Below are positions 14,315-61,094 of a stretch of DNA of 64,000 nucleotides, piece after piece (the first letter of the stretch is position 1; each line of letters opens with the position of its first letter). The position numbers and the translations under genes are program-made. The notes under the pieces were generated by a model. It was given only the letters and a program-made list of their open reading frames with translations, did no database searches and had not been told where the DNA came from. This DNA comes from Octopus sinensis (taxonomy: Eukaryota). The DNA is taken from the NCBI RefSeq assembly GCF_006345805.1, contig NC_043014.1, forward strand, positions 10,664,001 through 10,728,000, written 5' to 3'.

Positions 14315-15476
14315 TTAAGGCGGCGAGCTGGCAGAAACGTTAGCACGCCGGGCGAAATGCTTAGCGGTATTTCGTCTGCGTTGCGTTGTGAGTTCAAATT
14401 CCGCCGAGGTCGACTTTGCCTTTCATCCTTTCGGGATCGATAAATTAAGTACCAGTTACGCACTGGGGTCGATGTAATCGACTTAATACCTATGTCTGTC
14501 CTCGTTTGTCCCCTCTGTGTTTAGCCCCTTGTGGGTAATAAAGAAATAGGTATTTCGTCTGCGTTACGTTGTGAGTTCAAATTCCGACGAGGTCGACTTT
14601 GCCTTTCACCCTTTCGGGGTCGATAAATTAAGTATCAGTTACGCACTGGGGTCGATGTAATCGACTTAATACCTATGTCTGTCCTCGTTTGTCCCCTCTG
14701 TGTTTAGCCCCTTGTGGGTAATAAAGAAATAGAAATAGGTATTTCGTCTGCGTTACGTTGTGAGTTCAAATTCCGCTGAGGTCAACTTTGCCTTTCATCC
14801 TTTCGGGGTCGATAAATTAAGTACCAGTTACGCACTGGGGTCGATGTAATCGACTTAATACCTATGTCTGTCCTTGTTTGTCCCCTCTGTGTTTAGCCCC
14901 TTGTGGGTAATAAAGAAATAGGTATTTCGTCTGCATTACGTTGTGAGTTCAAATTCCGACGAGGTCGACTTTGCCTTTCACCCTTTCGGGGTCGATAAAT
15001 TAAGTATCAGTTACGCACTGGGGTCGATGTAATCGACTTAATACCTATGTCTGTCCTCGTTTGTCCCCTCTGTGTTTAGCCCCTTGTGGGTAATAAAGAA
15101 ATAGAAATAGGTATTTCGTCTGCGTTACGTTGTGAGTTCAAATTCCGACGAGGTCGACTTTGCCTTTCATCCTTTCGGGGTCGATAAATTAAGTACCAGT
15201 TACGCACTGGGGTCGAGGTAATCAACTTAATACCTATGTCTGTCCTTGTTTGTCCCCTCTGTGTTTAGCCCCTTGTGGGTAATAAAGAAATAGGTATTTC
15301 GTCTGCGTTACGTTGTGAGTTCAAATTCCGACGAGGTCGACTTTGCCTTTCACCCTTTCGGGGTCGATAAATTAAGTACCAGTTACGCACTGGGGTCGAT
15401 GTAATCGACTTAATACCTATGTCTGTCCTTGTTTGTCCCCCTCTGTGTTTAGCCCCTTGTAGGTAATAAAGAAATA
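14315..15476 (+). mobile_element. Six-unit head-to-tail SINE array with one head and a 14-bp TSD
   Basis: TSD GGTTGTAACTTAAT at 14301-14314 and 15477-15490. Internal units restart at GGTATTTCG with a period of about 185 bp. Confidence 0.92.
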
Positions 15477-15914
15477 GGTTGTAACTTAATACAGCAATTC
15501 ATTAATACAGCAATTCAACGGTTTCCTAATGACAACGATGTTACTTTTATTCTATTAGCTTAGTAATTCATATTAGTACTCATCACTAATAGAGAGGCAA
15601 AGACAAACAGGCAGAGAGAGACAGGGTAAGAGAGGGTGATTGAGAGGGTACGAACGAGAAGTGATATATATACATATATATATACATTTGTGTGTGTGTG
15701 TGTGAGAGAGACAAATGCAGAGGTTCAACATGAAAAAGGATACGATCAATGGAAACTAACTATAGCCTTTTACAAAGATAGTTAATCTGCTAGAGTCATT
15801 TAAGCTCCGTATAGACATCTTCTCATTGGCTTGTATTATTATATTTCTGTGACTTCACGGGTAGGTACCGCTGTTCCACTCCAATTAGTACCGCGCGCAC
15901 CCATGACTCCAGCA

Positions 15915-35380: not shown

Positions 35381-35659
35381 ATATATATGCATGTATCTAT
35401 GTATGTATGTATGAGTGTGTGTCTAAAACATTTGCATGTTTGTGTTTTAATGTATCAATATGTATTTGACATACAGGTGCAACAATCAAAGGGTTCACCA
35501 TTTTAAATTAGGGAAATATGACAGAAATTCAACTGCAGCGATTGCAATTAAATGATTGTTGTCAGTATTCGAACCTGGATCACTAATTCAGTATGTTACT
35601 ACATAAAACCTATTCGCCAGCACGCTCAAACTTATGTAAATATATATATGCATATCCAG

Positions 35660-36055
35660 ACATATGTGTGTGCATGTATGTATGTATATACGTATGTATG
35701 TATGTATGTATGTATGTATGTATGTATGTATGTATGTATGTATGAATGTATGTATGTATGTTTGTATGTATGTATATATGTATGTATGTATGTATGTATG
35801 CATGTATGTATGTTTGTGTGTATGTATGTATACGTGCTTGTATGTATGTATGTATGTATGTATTTATGTATGTATTCTTGTATGTATCTATGTATGTATG
35901 TTTGTGTGTATGTTTGTATGTATGTACGTATATGTGCTTGATTGTATGTATGTATATGTGCTTATATGTATGTAGGTATGTATGTATGCTTGTATGTATG
36001 CATGTATGTATGTACATGAATGTGTGTGTGTGTGCGTGTGTGTGTGTGTGTGTGT
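35660..36055 (+). repeat. (TATG)n/(TG)n microsatellite
   Basis: Read directly from the sequence. Confidence 0.95.
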
Positions 36056-36496
36056 TCCTACATAATTTAATAACGAATTGCGCATTATTTAAAACAGACA
36101 TTCAAGTCCACGCCTCCAATATGAATGTACTTTTGGATATATGCATTATGTGTAATTATGTAAGCATACATATGCACACACTAGCACGAACCCATGCACA
36201 TACACACACAAATATATATGCATGCGTGTGTGTGTGAAAATATTCATATATTTATGTATGTATGTATTTTATGTGTGTATTTGTGTACACATGTGAAGCT
36301 ATCATTATGTCCATACACACATACACACACATGCGTGTACACACACATGCATACACACACACATACACGCATACATGTACACACACATGCATGTTCACAG
36401 ATACACACACGCACGTGCATGTATTTGTTGTATGCAAAACATTTGAAATGTAAAATATACCTTTTTATTAAACATGCGCAGTTGTAGTTGTGCAGA

Positions 36497-37048
36497 AGCA
36501 GGCGGAGCTGTGCAGGCGCAGGCGTGGCTGTGCATGCACAGGCGTGGCTGTGCATGCGCAGGCGTAGCTGTGCATGTGCAAGTATGGCTGTATAGCCGCA
36601 GGCGTAGCTGTGCAGATACAGGCGTAGCTGTGCAGGCGCGGGCGTGGCTGTGCAAGTGCAGGCATGGTTGTGCAACCGCAGGCGTGGCTGTACAGGCGCA
36701 GGGGTGGCTGTGCAAGTGCAGGCATGGTTGTGCAGCCGCAGGCGTGGCTGTGCAGATACAGGCGTGGCTGCGCAGGTGCAGGTGTGGCTGTGCAAGTGCA
36801 GGCTTGCTTGGGCGGAAGCAGGCGTGGCTGTGCAGGCGCAGGCGTGGCTGTGCAGGCGTGGCTGTGCAGGCTCAGGCGTGACTGTGCAGGCTCAGGCGTG
36901 GCTGTGCAGGCGCAGGCGTGGCTGTGCAGGCGCAGGCGTGGCTGTGCAGGCGCAGGTGTGGCTGTGCAGGCTCAGGCGTGGCTGTGCAGGTGCAGACGTA
37001 GTTGTGCATGCGCAGGTTTGACTATGCAGGTACAGACGTGGCTGTGCG
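36497..37048 (+). repeat. 20-bp minisatellite GGCGCAGGCGTGGCTGTGCA (about 27 units), continuous with a SINE body (37030-37360)
   Basis: The unit equals the SINE 5' end GGCGCAGG(A/C)GTGGCTGTG; the last unit runs into CACATGGTTCTGGGTTCAGTCCCACTGCG. Confidence 0.85.
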
Positions 37049-53842: not shown

Positions 53843-54406
53843 GTGTATGTGTGTGTGTGTGTGGTGTGCGTGTGTGTATGTGCGTGTATATATATATATA
53901 TATATATATTTGTATGTATGCTTTTATGTGCGTATGTGTACTGAGTGGAGAGAGATTGTGTGGGAGACAGTGTTTGGAAAAAAAGCAAAATATATTTAGT
54001 GATGTATCTTTCATTGACGTCATCAAGAGGTTAGAACAAAGGACATTGTCTATTGATAAATAAGTATTTCATTGAATTACTTGGCGATAAATATAGATAT
54101 CTCATGCTTTAATCAATTACCACTGTCCTTATGTCAGTACCAGTTCTACACCGTCATACACAGCGAATTGAACCTTCCTTTTGACCTCACTTCAACATTG
54201 TACCTTATATCGTCATATACTTGTTTTGATCCCAGACAAAGACCTATGGTTAAGAATTTCACTTCTCATTACACGGTTCCTGGTTCTATCACAATATGTG
54301 CGCGCCTCTGCAAGTATCTTCTACCATAGGCACATGTATGTTTAAGAAATTAGCTACGTCTTCATATTGTTACGAAGGAGAAATATTCTGATAACTATAA
54401 TTTTAA

Positions 54407-54972
54407 ATGTTGTGTCCGGGGAGAGTCATTTTCTTTTTGTGCCTTATAATATAATACACTCACCGGTAAAATTTCCACTTATTTCGTAATTAAAACTAGC
54501 AGTATCGCCCGGCGTTGCTCGGGTTTGTAAGGGAAATAACTATATAAGCATTTTAAGAGAGTTATAGCCAAAAAATAGCCAAAAAAATGCATTAAAATGG
54601 AAAAAAAAATTATGGTAATTTTTTTTTAAATCGTTGACTCATCGTAGACATTTTTAGAGAGTTACTTCCCTTATATAATAGCGAAAAAATGCATTAAAAT
54701 GGAAAAAAATTATGGTAAATTTTTTTAATCGTAGACTCATCGTAGACGCGCGCTAATACCCAGAAGGGCTCGATGTGAATCACGACTATAAGATACCCGG
54801 TTTTGGTTAAACTGCACCGCAAAATGTGGGAGTAGTTAGGAATCTAAATCGTAGGAGACAGACACACAACTTCACTTTTATATATAAAGATAAGGAAAAC
54901 GTGGAAATTTTACCGGTGAGTGTGTTACATTATAAGGCACAAAAACAAAATGACTCTCCCCAGACACAACAG
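54407..54972. mobile_element. Long-TIR MITE split by a Helitron (a single arm also at about 6272-6345)
   Basis: TGTTGTGTCCGGGGAGAGTCATTTT...CCGGTAAAATTTCCAC and its reverse complement at 54900-54972. Confidence 0.75.
54496..54890 (-). mobile_element. Non-autonomous Helitron
   Basis: TC...hairpin...CTAG between A and T; paralog of 4114-4483. Confidence 0.82.
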
Positions 54973-55232
54973 AATATGCTTCAACACACGAACTCCTATA
55001 AAAATCTTGCAAACCAAATCCAAAAACGAAATAATTTTAAATGGTCCTACTCGAAATCGAAATACTGTTCTCTAGTTTTACAAAAGAAAACGAATAGTGA
55101 ATCAGTAATTAATTCTATGAGAAATAATGTCCATTGATCACGTGACTGATTTAAACCATGCTGCGTGTTTTCTTTTCGCGCGCTTTCTCTGTAGGGTGAA
55201 CTATATAAACTAGTGATTGAACATGAGGTGGA

Positions 55233-55436
55233 GGATAATTTTTTACTTCATATTTTATTTTTATTTTATGTACCCCATGTCCCGTCTTGTAATGTCCCCC
55301 TCTTCGTGGCCCCTTAGTGGGTAATAAAGAAACAGGATAATTTTTTACTTCATATTTTATTTTTATTTTATGTACCCCATGTCCCGTCTTGTAATGTCCC
55401 CCTCTTCGTGGCCCCTTAGTGGGTAATAAAGAAACC
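55233..55436 (+). mobile_element. Two tandem ~100-bp 3' stubs of the ORF1-only element
   Basis: GGATAAT|TTTTTACTTCAT...GCCCCTTAGTGGGTAATAAAGAAAC, twice. Confidence 0.8.
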
Positions 55437-55459
55437 GGATAAAAATGTGAAAATTTGGA

Positions 55460-57209
55460 GGGTTCAGACGTGTTGTTTTTCTGAGCGAGTTATTTGGAGT
55501 TATTCAGGTGTGATTATTCTGGTGTGTTTGTTTCGAGTGAGGAGGTGGTGAGTTCGAGTTCTTTGGAGGACGTGGAATAATTTTTTTTTCCGGAAAATGC
55601 AAGAACAGACTTACGCGCGAGCGGCAGGCAGAGGCCTGGTTGCCGGTGAGCTGGAAATGGAGGAGGTGGTGGTTGAACAGAGGACCCTACAGAAGTATTT
55701 CGACAGTTTAAAGAGGGAGGGTGACTGCGTAAGAGTCACACCGTCCGAGGAGGAGGAAGGAAAGCAGTGCAGAGAAGCGTACTATAACGTACAGGACGTG
55801 GTGTGTGGAGTCGAAAAAGATTGCAAGTAGCGGAAATGGAAGAAGAGTAGAAAGGTTGTCTGAAGGAAATTGAGGGAGAACCCACATTTTTCAAAAGAGG
55901 AAAGAAGTATGCCACGGTAGTGGTATATTTTGAAACAGAAAATGAGGCCAAAAAGAACGCAACAAGACTTTTGAAATCGGATAAGTGGACTCTTGCTACC
56001 AAGTTACTGCGGAAGGAGAGCAGGAGGATGAGAATCAATAGAATCTCACCCGAATTTAATATGGAAAGGTTGCTGGCAGCAGTGTGTTTAACTGCAAGGA
56101 TGATGTGGAGGTACTGAAGGTGGAGAGGAAAGAAGTCAGCGGAGGTGAAATGGTGGGGATATACGGTGCAGGTTCTCGCGCCAATTACCGTGCGAGACTG
56201 TACAACATCCCGGAGGAGCTGGTCTACCCTGACGAGACACGACTCCGAGTTGTGGTTAGAGGGAAGACCCCCAATTTGCTACAATTGTAAATCAAGGGGC
56301 CACATGAAGGATGTGTGCCCGCGGAGAAAAAACTAAAGCACCGGAGGTTGTGATGGAGGACGCGTGTGTGGAGGGAGGCGAACGGAGCGAAGAGAGGAGG
56401 AGGAAATACGAATGGAGGAGCGGTTAAGTGAGGGAAGAACGAGAGAGGCACAGAAGAAGAAAAGACGGAAGACAGGAAGAGATCAAGGGTGGAATCACCA
56501 CCGAAGGATAAAAAAAAAAGAAAGAAAAAATAAAGCAAGATAGCAGAAGAGAGAGAAGACAAAGAACAGGAAGTAAAAGAGAAGGTGAGAGAGCGGCCAA
56601 GGACAGAGTTTGAAAAAGAATGGGAGACCAGAGTGAACGAGCAATTGGAATCGTGCAGATATGGAAGAAGGCCTACAGGAAAAAACTTGAAGGCGGTTGT
56701 AATGTATATCAAGAATACAGAAGTGGAGAAGGACTTGTAGGTAAGAAAGGGTTGGTCAGGGTGAAGGTGAACCCAAAGCTGTATGGTGACGACGTGAAAG
56801 CGTCATTATAGACAAAGAGGACATACATAAAACTAAAAAAAGATGTTTAATGGTATGCACATAACGCACTATGTGCGGTATGATAAATTGCCAGATGTTA
56901 TAGAGCATACGGACCTGTTGGATATATGACGGACGAGCGTCTAATGTAAAAGAATCAGAATTATAAGATTTAAAGTTGTATTTTGAATATATGTAATGTT
57001 GACATGTAGAATTGTAAAATTATTGTAAATGTAAAATGTAATGTATAATTGTATTTTAAACGGACTGCGAGTTGGGGGCTCGTAAGCCGTTCCATCTCAT
57101 TACATCTAATTCATTTTTTACTTCATATTTTTTTTTACTCTATGTACCCCATGTCCCGTCTTGTAATGTCCCCCTCTTCGTGGCCCCTTAGTGGGTAATA
57201 AAAAAACAG
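55460..57209 (+). mobile_element. ORF1-only (HAL1-like) non-autonomous L1/Tx1-type retroelement, copy 1
   Basis: GT-rich 5' UTR, one gag-like ORF, about 280-bp 3' UTR, no EN/RT; flanked by GGA(T/C)AA.AATGTGAAAATTTGGA. Confidence 0.7.
55597..56929 (+). pseudogene. Frameshifted ORF1/gag-like protein: RRM-like region, CCHC zinc knuckle, charged tail
   Basis: MQEQTYARAA...; GKKYATVVVYFETENEA; VEGRPPICYNCKSRGHMKDVCP (CX2CX4HX4C at about 56277-56318); stitched from several track ORFs. Confidence 0.75.
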
Positions 57210-57232
57210 GACAACAATGTGAAAATTTGGAG

Positions 57233-59009
57233 AGTTCAGACGTGTTATTTTTCTGAGCGAGTTGATTGGATTTATTCAGGTGTGATTATTCTGGTGTGTT
57301 TATTTCAAGTGAAGAGGTGGTGAGTTCGAATTCGTTGGAGGACGTGGAATAATTTTTTTTTCCGGAAAATGCAAGAACAGACTTACGCGCGAGCGGCAGG
57401 CAGAGGCCTGGTTGCCGGTGAGCTGGAGATGGAGGAGGTGGTGGTCGAACAGAAGACCCTACAGAAGTATTTCGACACAGTCTAAAGAGGGAGGGTGACT
57501 GCGTAAGAGTCACACCGTCCGAGGAGGAGGAGGAAAAGCGGAAAGCAGTGCAGAGAAGCGTACTATAACGTACAGGACGTGGTGTGTGGAGAGTCGAAAA
57601 AAGAGATTGAAGTAGCGGAAATGGAAGAAGTAGAAAGGTGCTGAAGGAAATTGAGGGGAGAGAACCCACATTTTTCAAAAGAGGAAAGAAGTATGCCACG
57701 GTAGTGGGTATATTTTGAACAGAAAAATGAGGCAAAAAAGAACGCAACAAGACTTTTGAAATCGGATAAGTGGACTTTGCTACCAAGTTACTGCGGAAGG
57801 AGAGCAGTGAGGATGAGAATCAATAGAATCTCACCCGAATTTAATATGGAAAGGTTGCTGGCAGCAGTGCTGTTTAACTGCAAGGATGATGTGGAAGTAC
57901 TGAAGGTGGAGAAGTCAGCGGAGGTGAAATGGTGGGGATATACGGTTGCAGGTTCTCGCGCACATTACCGTGCGAGACCTGTACAACATCCCGGAGGAGC
58001 TGGTCTACCCTGACGAGACACGGCTCCGAGTTGTGGTAGAGGGGAAGACCCCCAATTTGCTACAATTGTAAGTCGAGGGGCCACAGAAGAATGTGTGCCC
58101 GCGAGAAAAAGCAAAAGCACCAGTGGTTGTGATGGAGGAGTGTAGAGATGCGTGTGTGGAGTGGAGGAGGCGAAAGCGGAGGAAATACGAATGGAGGAGC
58201 CAGTTGGATGAGGAAGAAGAACGAGTGAGTGCAGAAGAAGAAAAGACAGAAGACAGGAAGAGATCAAGGTGGAATCACCACCGAAAGATCAAAAAAAAGA
58301 AAAAAAAATTAAAAGCAAGATAGCAGAAGAGAGAGAAGAGACAAAGAACAGGAAGTAAAAAGAGGAAGGCGAGAGAGCGGCCAAGGACACAGAGTTGAAA
58401 AGAATGGGGAGACAAGAGTGAACGAGCAATTGGAATCATGCAAATATGGAAGAAGGCCTACAGGAAAAAACTTGAAGGCCAGTTGTAATGTATATCAAGA
58501 ATACAGAAGTGGAGAGAGACTTGTAGGTAAGAAAGGGTTGGTCGGGGTGAAGGTGAACCCAAAGCTGTATGGTGACGACGTGAAAGGCGTCATCATATAG
58601 ACAAAGAGACATATATAAAATTAAAAAAGATGTTTAATGCTATGCACATAACGCATTATGTGCGGTGATGATCATGATAAATTGCCAGATGTTATAGAGC
58701 AAACGGACCTGTTGGATTAAATGACGGACGAGCGTCTAATATAAAAGAATTAGAATTAATTGTAAAATTTAAAGTTGTATTTTGAATATATGTAATATGG
58801 ACATGTAGAAGTGTAAAAAATTATTGTAACTGTAAAATTGTATGTATAATTGTATTTTAAACGGAACTGCGAGTTGGGGGTTCGTAAGCCGTTCCATCTC
58901 ATTACATCTAATCTCATTTTACTTCATATTTTATTTTATTTTATGTACCCCATGTCTCGTCTTGTAATGTCCCCCTCTTCGTGGCCCCTTAGTGGGTAAT
59001 AAAGAAACA
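57233..59009 (+). mobile_element. ORF1-only element, copy 2 (ORF about 57369-58720, frameshifted)
   Basis: Colinear, high-identity paralog of copy 1 with different indels. Confidence 0.72.
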
Positions 59010-59031
59010 GGATAATAATGTGAACATTTGG

Positions 59032-59642
59032 AAGGCGGCGAGCTGGCAGAACCGTTAGCATGCCGTGCGAAATGTGTAGCGGTATTTCGTCTGCGTTACG
59101 TTGTGAGTTCAAATTCCGCCGAGGTCGACTTTGCCTTTCATCCTTTCGGGGTCGATAAATTAAGTACCAGTTACGAACTGGGGTCGATGTCATCGACTTA
59201 ATCCCTTTGTCTGTACTTGCTTGTCCCCTCTGTGTTTAGCCCCTTGTGGGTAATAAAGAAATAGGTATTTCGTCCTGCCGTTACGTTCTGAGTTCAAATT
59301 CCGCCGAGGTCGACTTTGCCTTTCATCTTTTCGGAGTAGATCAATTAAGTACAATTACGTACAGTTCGCACTGGGGTCGATGTCATCGACTTAATCCCTT
59401 TGTCTGTCCTGCTTGTCCCCTCTGTGTTAGCCCCTTGTGGGTAATAGAAAGAAATAGGTATTTCGTCTGCCTCGTTACGTTCTGAGTTCAAATTCCGCCG
59501 AGGTCGACTTTGCCTTTCATCCTTTCGGGGTCGATAAATTAAGTACCAGTTACGTACTGGGGTCGATGTCATCGACTTAATCCCTTTGTCTGTCCTTGTT
59601 TGTCCCCTCTATGTTTAGCCCCTTGTGGGCAATAAAGAAATA
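59032..59642 (+). mobile_element. Three-unit SINE array directly after the shared target motif
   Basis: One head; units restart at GGTATTTCG; array-specific variants GATGTCATCGAC and ATCCCTTTGTC. Confidence 0.9.
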
Positions 59643-61094
59643 AATATACTCAAATACAAGGAAGCGACCATCATGTGTATATATAGCCATCTATGAATCT
59701 TACTTAATGCAGATAAATCGCGTAAATGCAAATTAACTGCTATGTTCGTACTGAGATGACATTTCTTATTGGCGTACTATGTTTTAAAACGGATATATCA
59801 ACAGCTGACAAAGCTCGATCCAGTGTAGTGGTGAGAATGCTAGTTGCGCATGTCTGTTTCATTGGACTTTATGAGAAGGATGCACACACAGCTGGGTTAT
59901 AATTGCAGTAAGCCTATTCGTCCGACTCATTTTTACTACCCTCATCTACCGTTCAAAAACTGTATTGAGAATGGGGACAACAGTTCTCTCGCCACCCCAT
60001 CTTCCTCCCCAAATTATTCTTGAAAATTTGAAAGGAGACAGTATCCTTCTTTAGTCTTTTTCCGTCCCGTCCGCATATTTCTAGTATTTACCCCTACACA
60101 CCACCATTGTACACTTATTCTTAACTCTCTACATTGAAGATTACTACTATAGATTTATCTGCCCTTCATTTACCAATTAATAAAACTACAATAATTAAGG
60201 GTAGAATCGTTAGCGCGTCGGGCAAAATGCATAGCAGGGTTTTTTTTTTCAGCTCTTTATGTTCCGATTTCAAATTTCGCCGCGGTCGACTTCGCTTTTC
60301 ATTCTTTCAGGATCGATAAAATATCTACCAGTTGAGCGCTGTAACCGTATAATATTCTTCCACCAAAACTGCTGACCTTGAGCCGAAATTTGAATCCTTT
60401 AATTAATACTTGACCACAAATTTCCGCCAGTTATTCGTTCGTGCTACGAATTAGTAGGAAATTCAAAAATAGCATTTCTTTGATTTAGGAGAATATCTTT
60501 CTTTTTGCGTCAGTTTATGTCTAGATTATTCCGGAGAAGTTCAAGATTATCACATAATTAAATACCACACATTTTTGTGTGTGTGTGTGTGCGTGTATTA
60601 TCCCGTTAAATCTATCTTCGTAAATGCTATTAAAAGAAAAGCACTCATCTAAAAAGAAACAACACAACACACTCTTAAAAGAGCTAATTAACGAACTACT
60701 TCCTTCCGTTAATGAATCACTCCAAGCATTTTATGATCTATTGTTAAAAATTTATTAATGGAAGGGATAAAAATAGACTTTGGTCTGCGTCTATTTTTAC
60801 TGTATTGTCTAATAATAACTTTAACGATAGAACATTTAATAATTCGATGACTAGGAGAGAATGAGGGAAGCTGAAACAGGAAAATCAATGAAGTAGAAAA
60901 AAAGGGAAGGAAAGATCCAATGAGATTTCAGTGTATGTACAGCATGCAGCTGTGGGCTTAAACTAAGACTTTCTTAATTAAATTCGTTTGTTGAATCTAT
61001 TTAGAAATATATCAAGAAAACACCATGAAATTGCAACAATGATAAATTGTAAAAATAGCAGTATAAATACTGGTGTGGTTCGAATAGAGAAAAT

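What the first reader, a model, noticed from the sequence alone, without database searches (positions are those of the whole stretch)
55460..59009. ORF1-only retroelement (HAL1-like) in an invertebrate
Two 1.75-kb copies have a defined 5' start, one gag-like ORF (RRM-like region, CCHC knuckle, charged region, distinct C-terminal domain) and the shared 3' signal, but no endonuclease or RT. ORF1-only L1 derivatives (HAL1) are known mainly from vertebrates. Frameshifts differ between the copies and often fall in homopolymers, so they may be sequencing errors in an intact ORF.
Basis: partly seen in the sequence, partly recalled or inferred. Interest (0 to 1): 0.72.

Follow-up and report, generated by a model that had tools for sequence, protein, structure and literature searches.

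The report
Half-LINE stacked behind a TATA box
Two decayed head-to-tail copies of an octopus jumping element that keeps only the RNA-binding gene of its LINE relatives and likely borrows their copying enzyme; its family lands again and again about 30 bases behind TATA boxes, which would let it run on foreign promoters.

Summary
The two ~1.78-kb copies are real (94% alike), but both are truly decayed: 17 and 19 frameshifting indels, few in homopolymers, plus substitution stops. Elsewhere in the same 2.7-Gb genome the family keeps an intact 439-aa ORF under purifying selection (dN/dS 0.14-0.26). The protein is a LINE ORF1 homologue (tandem RRM-like folds plus CCHC) with a disordered charged linker and a confident C-terminal domain without a clear solved relative. 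No copy examined carries EN/RT. A partner LINE with intact ORF1 and ORF2 (APE endonuclease, RT, zf-RVT) shares the last ~50 bases and the same landing site. TSDs of 10-19 bp, 5' truncation and TSD copies between array units show target-primed insertion, repeated at one nick. So "ORF1-only, HAL1-like" is supported as a way of working; membership in HAL1 is not. New here: most copies sit at fixed sites in three promoter-bearing host repeats, and a TATA box lies 24-34 nt upstream of the nick in 7 of 14 distinct targets, the window included (background 3%). Whether this is targeting or survivorship is open.

The parts
55202..55209 (+). TATATAAA in the flank; its first T lies 30 nt upstream of the first-nick site at 55232
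   Evidence: read; spacing counted by hand; immediate flank 55040-55240 is unlike R, R2, R3 and other fetched loci
55232..55238 (+). AGGATAA: left copy of the short target duplication; the same heptamer follows each of the four tails
55239..55334 (+). tail-only stub 1 (extreme 5' truncation)
   Evidence: (family D7)
55341..55436 (+). tail-only stub 2
55436..55461 (+). 26-nt block X, copy 1 (local target duplication, inferred)
   Evidence: same block at 57208-57233 and 59009-59034
55462..57208 (+). unit A: ~26-nt leader inherited from an earlier landing site (R2 type), 5' UTR, broken ORF 55597-56949, 3' UTR, tail 57116-57208
57208..57233 (+). 26-nt block X, copy 2
57234..59009 (+). unit B: leader, broken ORF 57369-58744, 3' UTR, tail 58917-59009
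59009..59034 (+). 26-nt block X, copy 3, closing the array
59035..59645 (+). tRNA-SINE: one head and three bodies, each ending in the same tail as the units
   Evidence: (D9, D10, D14)

Best explanation
The window holds two decayed copies and two tail-only stubs of a non-autonomous non-LTR retroelement that encodes only a LINE ORF1-type RNA-binding protein and is likely copied by the endonuclease and reverse transcriptase of a partner LINE family that shares its last ~50 bases. Shown: intact 439-aa ORFs elsewhere under purifying selection; homology of residues 4-243 to ORF1 of LINEs that carry APE endonuclease, RT and zf-RVT; the common tail in element, LINE and tRNA-SINE; target-site duplications of 10-19 bp; 5'-truncated copies; arrays in which each unit is separated by a copy of the local duplication, so the same nick was used repeatedly (four times in the window). 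Shown: most copies sit at one fixed position in three host repeats (R, R2, R3), 24-33 nt downstream of a TATA box, and copies elsewhere (the window's) carry a short 5' leader copied from such a site. Inferred: transcription starts in the host promoter, so the RNA carries the upstream duplication copy as a tag; the AATAAA in the tail ends the transcript; the element's own protein coats its RNA in cis; ORF2 protein made by the LINE recognises the tail (a short GC hairpin before AAUAAAG is kept by compensatory changes) and primes on the nicked target. The C-terminal domain has no assigned role.
For: Intact ORFs: (28 of 98 listed matches full length without stop). Selection: 18 intact ORFs, 134 pairs with dS above 0, median dN/dS 0.14-0.26 in every dS bin; every domain 0.11-0.26. 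ORF1 homology: 32-37% identity, E 1e-35 to 5e-39 to ORF1 of three LINE copies. LINE domains: Exo_endo_phos 1.1e-9, RVT_1 3e-18, zf-RVT 5e-10; intact ORF1 349 aa and ORF2 1128 aa in L079; many ORF2 frames of 1128-1176 aa open. Tail; 29 of 30 closest LINE 3' ends have it. TSDs: 19, 12, 17 bp at single copies; 17 and 16 bp around and inside two arrays, staggered in a third; 16 bp for the LINE at the R site. Chains of element and LINE: L081, L078. Fold: RRM matches to residues 49-137 (Z to 9.3, rmsd 1.9, 75 aligned) and ferredoxin/RRM-like to 134-220 (Z about 7.5); tandem-RRM proteins by Foldseek, E about 1e-4. Units of one array are mostly not sisters.
Against: No experiment or RNA evidence: the runs that hold the family are of guessed kind. 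The partner's ORF1 is only 32-37% identical, so the LINE found is a relative that shares tail and site, not a proven helper. Element subfamilies with the second tail type (GGGCC..GCCYATAATAAAGA) have no LINE with that tail among the 30 LINE 3' ends examined. The SINE arrays do not follow the sandwich rule (no duplication copy between units), so not every array here arises the same way. Two truncated units in the C4 array share one truncation point, which fits DNA-level duplication as well. The tree was read without support values.
Confidence: 0.8

Rival explanations
1. The TATA-to-nick spacing is survivorship, not targeting: insertion is near random, but only copies that land behind a promoter are transcribed, multiply and stay recognisable, and my samples (best BLAST hits; copies keeping a conserved 23-mer) favour such copies.
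For: Samples were chosen by similarity. tRNA-SINEs with the same tail and their own internal promoter show no TATA at the one duplication checked. Misses exist: L084, L104, L096 (doubtful duplication), L029 (TATAAG at -41).
Against: Dead-on-arrival copies show it too: 5'-truncated L024 (TATATA at -31), truncated L103 at the exact R site, the window's two tail-only stubs at the same nick. 18 of 37 newly fetched loci share one nick in R3 and 11 of 19 earlier loci one nick in R, which random insertion cannot give. The LINE itself sits at the R site in L073, L125 and R-like sites in L143, L145.
Confidence: 0.35
2. The arrays, the window's included, grew by DNA-level tandem duplication (unequal crossing-over or replication slippage) of one inserted unit, not by repeated insertion.
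For: Two identically truncated units with a 1,172-nt period in the C4 array; four very similar units in the C5 array; both window units carry the same unusual leader.
Against: Window units A and B differ by 6% with different indels and fall apart in the tree; units of the C17, C30, C7 and C8 arrays are not sisters either; the C30 array has staggered duplications and different leaders in successive units; tail-only stubs in the window have a 7-nt, the full units a 26-nt duplication at one nick. Sequential insertion sandwiching a duplication is described for Tx1-mobilised SINEU-3 (PMC4494074, passages).
Confidence: 0.15
3. A host gene family (a domesticated ORF1, as L1TD1 in mammals) arranged in tandem, not a mobile element.
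For: dN/dS well below 1 in all domains; relatives are annotated as ordinary 'uncharacterized' or 'CCHC-type domain-containing' proteins in three Octopus species.
Against: At least 63 dispersed clusters among 100 listed motif hits, duplications at each insertion, 5' truncation, LINE/SINE tail, many decayed copies such as the window's.
Confidence: 0.04
4. A local internal deletion of a full LINE, or one locus mis-assembled into two.
Against: Same ORF1-only layout at every locus examined, down to about 50% protein identity; 35 neighbour spacings, 30 of them 1.69-1.82 kb; A and B differ at 214 of 1,935 columns.
Confidence: 0.02

Closest known systems
HAL1 (half-L1) of mammals
   Same: Non-autonomous LINE derivative that keeps ORF1 only and depends on a full LINE for ORF2 functions (PMC5753468, passages read).
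   Different: HAL1 descends from mammalian L1 and arose several times there; this family is octopod, its ORF1 has a CCHC knuckle and an extra C-terminal domain absent from the partner LINE's ORF1, it ends in a specific tail instead of poly(A), prefers fixed sites and forms arrays. It is old: subfamilies reach about 50% protein identity.
HeT-A of Drosophila telomeres
   Same: Invertebrate gag-only non-LTR element, non-autonomous, thought to use the RT of TART or TAHRE, found in head-to-tail arrays where neighbouring sequence supplies the promoter (PMC5537684, passages read).
   Different: HeT-A adds to chromosome ends and takes its promoter from the 3' end of the upstream element; here arrays are interstitial (window at 10.7 Mb of a 55-Mb contig), flanked by duplications, and the promoter-like sequence is in the host flank. 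Clade relation not tested.
Tx1-clade site-specific LINEs with their SINEs (crocodilian Tx1-Mar / SINEU-3)
   Same: Partner LINE and short element share a 3' tail, prefer one site inside another repeat, and tandem copies sandwich a duplication through sequential insertion (PMC4494074, passages read). L1-Tx1 LINEs are listed as recently active in Octopus vulgaris (PMC13282606, passages read).
   Different: The dependent element here is protein-coding (ORF1); targets are positions just behind TATA boxes in several unrelated sequences. Tx1 membership of the partner LINE was not tested by phylogeny.
Start-site-directed retroelements: Ty3 of yeast, TRE5-A of Dictyostelium (recalled, not read here)
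   Same: Integration positioned by a transcription complex at or near a start site.
   Different: Those use Pol III genes; here the mark is a TATA box at Pol II-like spacing, and targeting itself is only inferred.

Membership tests
LINE ORF1 protein of the RRM + CCHC kind | sequence homology to ORF1 of elements that carry EN and RT | tested here: met
   BLASTP E 1e-35, 9e-35, 5e-39 over residues 4-243 against ORF1 of L073, L079, L080
LINE ORF1 protein of the RRM + CCHC kind | RRM fold | tested here: met
   predicted model only: residues 49-137 match RRMs, Z 9.3 (rmsd 1.9, 75 aligned) to about 6.5; second ferredoxin/RRM-like domain 134-220
LINE ORF1 protein of the RRM + CCHC kind | CCHC zinc knuckle | tested here: met
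   C223, C226, H231, C236 nearly invariant in 27 sequences; Pfam zf-CCHC below cut-off for P0001 (18.7 against 20.8 bits), above it for the LINE ORF1 (25.3 bits); profile hits to nucleocapsid knuckles
Non-autonomous non-LTR retroelement moved by target-primed reverse transcription | target-site duplications of variable length | tested here: met
   10-21 bp proposals at 27 of 37 new loci (the shortest may be chance) and hand-checked 12, 16, 17, 17, 19 bp
Non-autonomous non-LTR retroelement moved by target-primed reverse transcription | 5'-truncated copies | tested here: met
   L024, L088, L103, L104, C4 array units from ORF position 426, window stubs
Non-autonomous non-LTR retroelement moved by target-primed reverse transcription | no RT of its own; 3' end shared with an autonomous LINE | tested here: met
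Non-autonomous non-LTR retroelement moved by target-primed reverse transcription | mobilisation in trans by the LINE's ORF2 protein | not testable with these tools
   needs a retrotransposition assay
HAL1 | descent from mammalian L1 by loss of ORF2 | tested here: not met
   octopus genome; relatives only named from Octopus species among 10 looked up; ORF1 carries a CCHC knuckle; tail-specific, no poly(A)
Tx1 clade (partner LINE) | APE endonuclease, RT and C-terminal zinc-binding domain in ORF2; ORF1 present | tested here: met
   nearest solved relative is human L1 ORF2p (E 2e-15 and 1e-4)
Tx1 clade (partner LINE) | preference for a specific site in another repeat | tested here: met
   LINE at the R site in L073 and L125, R-like sites in L143 and L145; another subfamily at a SINE-head site in L080
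Tx1 clade (partner LINE) | placement inside the Tx1 clade in an RT phylogeny | not tested
   no reference RT sequences were at hand; the name rests on earlier unchecked notes and on the RepeatMasker class used in PMC13282606
HeT-A-like telomeric elements | addition to chromosome ends only | tested here: not met
   63 clusters at interstitial coordinates, with flanking duplications

The most novel reading that the evidence does not exclude
This LINE family and its ORF1-only dependant choose landing sites by the Pol II start-site machinery: the first nick falls about 30 bp downstream of a TATA box, in host repeats and in unique DNA alike, so each new copy is born with a promoter and carries a short tag of its last landing site. 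That would be a Pol II counterpart of the Pol III-directed Ty3 and TRE5-A, in an animal, with a protein-coding parasite riding on it.
Probability: 0.4. Interest if true: 0.85.

Novelty: new variant of a known kind. Interest (0 to 1): 0.62.

Why it matters
Gag-only LINE dependants are few (HAL1, HeT-A), and why a parasite of a LINE should keep ORF1 is unsettled. Here is an old, diversified family with the ORF under selection in all domains, with an added confident domain of unknown fold, in a genome where LINE activity is under study. The landing pattern gives a testable answer to the standing problem of how a LINE lacking an internal promoter stays expressed: land just behind someone else's TATA box. 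For annotation, these units are currently called ordinary genes in three Octopus species.

Tried and rejected
Hammerhead/retrozyme or Penelope-like reading of the tandem layout: no Rfam match at E up to 1 in 54000-61000; dropped after duplications and the LINE were found. LTR-like reading of the 100-nt repeat: it is the element's own tail, also alone as stubs. RNA evidence: no RNA holder listed; contigs of runs of guessed kind cover the unit, the region upstream of the predicted start and the empty R form alike, so nothing follows on expression or start site. Test of the window's indels with other data: the contigs laid were short, high-depth family words, not locus-specific. The search for homologous proteins: one weak hit for the LINE endonuclease part, none for P0001, probably swamped by low-complexity words. 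ESM Atlas on the C-terminal domain: no usable hit. C-terminal domain alone (pLDDT 91.9): Foldseek best E 0.044 (BLUF, acylphosphatase, HMA-like sandwiches); VIA-align wide, 0 of 48,161 chains at Z 5 or more, best Z 4.8; no family assigned. No similarity of residues 244-439 to the LINE's ORF1 or ORF2. Consensus fold of the tail: only 2 pairs, energy -0.33 kcal/mol, one compensatory pair between two tail types, plus a second change seen by eye: a hint only. A LINE with the second tail type: not among 30 LINE 3' ends. Nick-site consensus: none seen by eye. Class of host repeats R, R2, R3: not resolved. No complex prediction was run.
Full report
WHAT IS IN THE WINDOW. The window is G000:C18:10664001-10728000 of a 2.72-Gb assembly. 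Relatives of the encoded protein are named from Octopus bimaculoides, O. sinensis and O. vulgaris, so I call it an octopus genome. From 55232 to 59034 the + strand reads: heptamer AGGATAA, a 96-nt tail-only stub, AGGATAA, a second stub, a 26-nt block X, unit A, X, unit B, X, then a tRNA-SINE head with three bodies. A and B are identical at 1,721 of 1,935 aligned columns. Each unit has a leader, one long broken frame, a 3' UTR and a ~90-nt tail ending GGGTAATAAAGAAACA.

THE COPIES HERE ARE DEAD, THE FAMILY IS NOT. A DNA search found 68 matches among the 40 scored of 218 first-look candidates. In the 30 loci returned, many frames of 431-463 aa are open. I took one naturally open frame (L002:1614-2930, 439 aa, P0001). 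A protein search listed 98 matches (96 of 52,038 loose candidates scored), from 100% to about 50% identity; 28 cover residues 1-437 or more without a stop. A 23-mer at the zinc knuckle occurs 129 times with at most one mismatch, against 0 for the reversed control. Copy number is thus in the hundreds, not tens of thousands. Against the intact copy, unit A has 41 substitutions in 1,305 aligned bases and 20 indel events (17 frameshifting, 2 in homopolymer context). Unit B has 53 in 1,312 and 22 events (19 frameshifting, 4 in homopolymer context). Each has 2 premature stops made by substitution. Indels of 2-14 nt and intact copies in the same assembly argue against sequencing error. Reads could not test this.

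SELECTION. For 18 distinct intact ORFs from different loci, Nei-Gojobori dN/dS has medians of 0.14-0.26 in all six dS bins (134 pairs). By domain the medians are: N-terminus 0.11, RRM-like 0.13, knuckle 0.12, linker 0.26, C-terminal domain 0.23. Choosing open frames biases against stops, not against replacements.

THE PROTEIN. Pfam gives only a weak zf-CCHC. An HMMER scan of 1.84 billion representatives found 385 relatives at E up to 0.001, none of the 15 longest with an RT domain. The AlphaFold model (27-row alignment) has mean pLDDT 76.5: residues 20-242 confident, 243-321 below 50, 322-439 at 91-96. Residues 49-137 match RRMs (best Z 9.3, rmsd 1.9, 75 aligned). Residues 134-220 match ferredoxin/RRM-like domains at Z about 7.5. 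Foldseek ranks tandem-RRM proteins first. The C-terminal domain folded alone (pLDDT 91.9, pTM 0.83) has no clear solved relative: Foldseek best E 0.044; 0 of 48,161 chains at Z 5 or more. It is conserved in distant octopus relatives and has no counterpart in the LINE's ORF1 or ORF2.

THE PARTNER LINE. While checking what lies upstream of array-leading units I found a host repeat, R. In one R copy a different element sits at the same spot. That element (L073) has an ORF1 that is 37% identical to P0001 residues 55-243 (E 1e-35) and an ORF2 with Exo_endo_phos, RVT_1 and zf-RVT. Its 16-bp duplication is CTTAGGTTTCCAGTCC, and its tail aligns with the unit's and the SINE's over the last ~50 nt. L079 is a copy with open ORF1 (349 aa) and ORF2 (1,128 aa). 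Many ORF2 frames of 1,128-1,176 aa are open among the 100 scored of 13,318 candidates. Of the 30 LINE 3' ends closest to L079, 29 have this tail. The nearest solved relative is human L1 ORF2p. Earlier notes of this scan call the family Tx1; I did not test that. Units and LINEs occur in one chain at L081 and L078.

HOW COPIES ARRIVE. Single copies have duplications of 19 bp (L029), 12 bp (L006) and 17 bp (L024, which starts inside the ORF). In the C4 array the 17-mer before the first unit recurs between full units and after the last tail. The C7 array does the same with a 16-mer. In the C30 array successive units have staggered duplications and different leaders. Of 100 listed motif hits, 56 lie within 3.6 kb of another on the same strand. 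Of the 35 neighbour spacings, 30 are 1.69-1.82 kb, two are 1.17 kb, two 1.48 kb and one 3.42 kb. In a FastTree of 37 units, units of one array are mostly not sisters (window, C17, C30, C7, C8); the C5 array and three C4 units do cluster (no support values read). Repeated insertion at one nick, as described for SINEU-3 (PMC4494074, passages), fits best. Some DNA-level duplication is not excluded.

WHERE THEY LAND. Eleven of the 19 distinct loci among L001-L030 lie in R. R is a ~1.2-1.3-kb repeat with a sharp 5' end, CCAAT and TATAAAA, 52-nt monomers and about 820 nt more. The insertion duplicates the first ~18 nt of the first monomer. Of 30 distinct R 5' regions, 7 carry the unit, 1 the LINE and 22 are empty. 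Subfamilies with a second tail type sit at one site of another repeat, R3, in 18 of 37 further loci. A third target, R2, is seen at C7:38.86 Mb and C2:29.61 Mb. The window's units carry, between block X and the element proper, ~26 nt that align with the R2 duplication, although the window's flank is not R2. The leader therefore came with the RNA from a master in an R2 site.

THE TATA PATTERN. I counted by hand from the printed sequences. A strict TATAWA starts 24-34 nt upstream of the nick in 7 of 14 distinct targets: window -30, C4 array -30, L006 -32, L024 -31, R -29, R2 -30, R3 -24. AATAAATA, ATAAATAG and TAAATAAA variants at -31, -31 and -25 add three (C7 array, C30 array, L115). The misses are L029 (TATAAG at -41), L084, L096 (doubtful duplication) and L104. 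Over 1.15 million positions of the fetched DNA the strict motif is so placed at 3.3% and the relaxed one at 4.2%. The binomial tails for 7 and 10 of 13 were 7e-8 and 4e-12 (run before the L104 miss; not recomputed). Truncated copies L024 and L103 and the window's stubs share the pattern. Caveats: the samples favour young copies, host repeats may be related to each other, and counting was manual.

WHAT IS KNOWN. HAL1 is the mammalian ORF1-only L1 derivative (PMC5753468, passages). HeT-A is a gag-only, array-forming element of flies (PMC5537684, passages). Full-text searches for octopus with LINE, ORF1 and retrotransposon (11 papers, listing seen) and for octopus with Tx1 and SINE (7 papers) showed no description of an ORF1-only octopus element. 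The 2026 O. vulgaris repeat paper has no occurrence of 'ORF1' or 'non-autonomous' in its main text; its supplements were not read. A search for non-LTR elements, TATA box and start sites listed nothing relevant by title. These searches do not prove absence from print or from Repbase.

VERDICT. The reading 'ORF1-only retroelement' holds; 'possibly intact here' does not. The element is a new variant of a known kind. The landing rule is the part worth following.

Noticed in passing
window 14320-15478 (also 17.8-18.3 kb, 59035-59645, minus strand 4.6-7.2 kb): tRNA-SINE arrays: one full head followed by up to six headless bodies, period about 184-189 nt. The whole 14-kb array is flanked by one 14-bp duplication GGTTGTAACTTAAT with no duplication copy between units. 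Junctions alternate between AAATAG and AAATAGAAATAG, a higher-order pattern. This is built differently from the ORF1-only arrays.
   Followed up: partly
L004:1190-1500 with L039:130-950; 30 further copies in L043-L072: Host repeat R: about 1.2-1.3 kb, starts TGTAGCAATA, has CCAAT and TATAAAA, 1-4 monomers of about 52 nt beginning CGTCTTAGG, ends CCTATTTTTATA with a ~4-bp flank repeat. Tandem R-R with 1,318-nt period in L060/L062; head-to-head pair in L020. No long ORF; class unknown.
   Followed up: partly
L087 and 17 other loci of L083-L117; L082; L078: Two more TATA-bearing host repeats used as fixed landing sites. R3 has duplication AATATCACCAGCYGACC, for subfamilies with the second tail type. 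R2 has duplication AGTTCAGACTCGTTATT.. / GTGTTATTTTTACGCGCG. Neither was classified.
   Followed up: partly
L143-L148 (LINE 3' ends, 74-76% group): Tail variant AATCCTTATGGATAATAAAGAAA: the CCC/GGG stem before AAUAAAG becomes TCC/GGA. This is a second compensatory change besides CCC/GGG to GGC/GCC in the second tail type.
   Followed up: partly
L080:6185-6400: A LINE subfamily with open ORF1 (490 aa) and ORF2 (1,134 aa) ends directly on a SINE at the internal point GTATTTCG, the same point at which SINE bodies repeat in arrays.
   Followed up: no
L088:1690-1715, L006, L029: The 12-mer AGTCTGCTATCA is the duplication at L006, recurs twice in tandem before a truncated copy in L088, and in diverged form is the leader of L029. 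It is either another shared target or an inherited tag.
   Followed up: no
L115 and L116 (C2:138.78 and 138.80 Mb): Same insertion with identical duplication and flanks about 19 kb apart: a segmental duplication carrying a unit.
   Followed up: no
window 35600-36970: Long frames open on both strands through microsatellite-like (TAYA/CAYA)n and a ~45-nt proline/alanine-reading tandem repeat; compositional, not followed.
   Followed up: no
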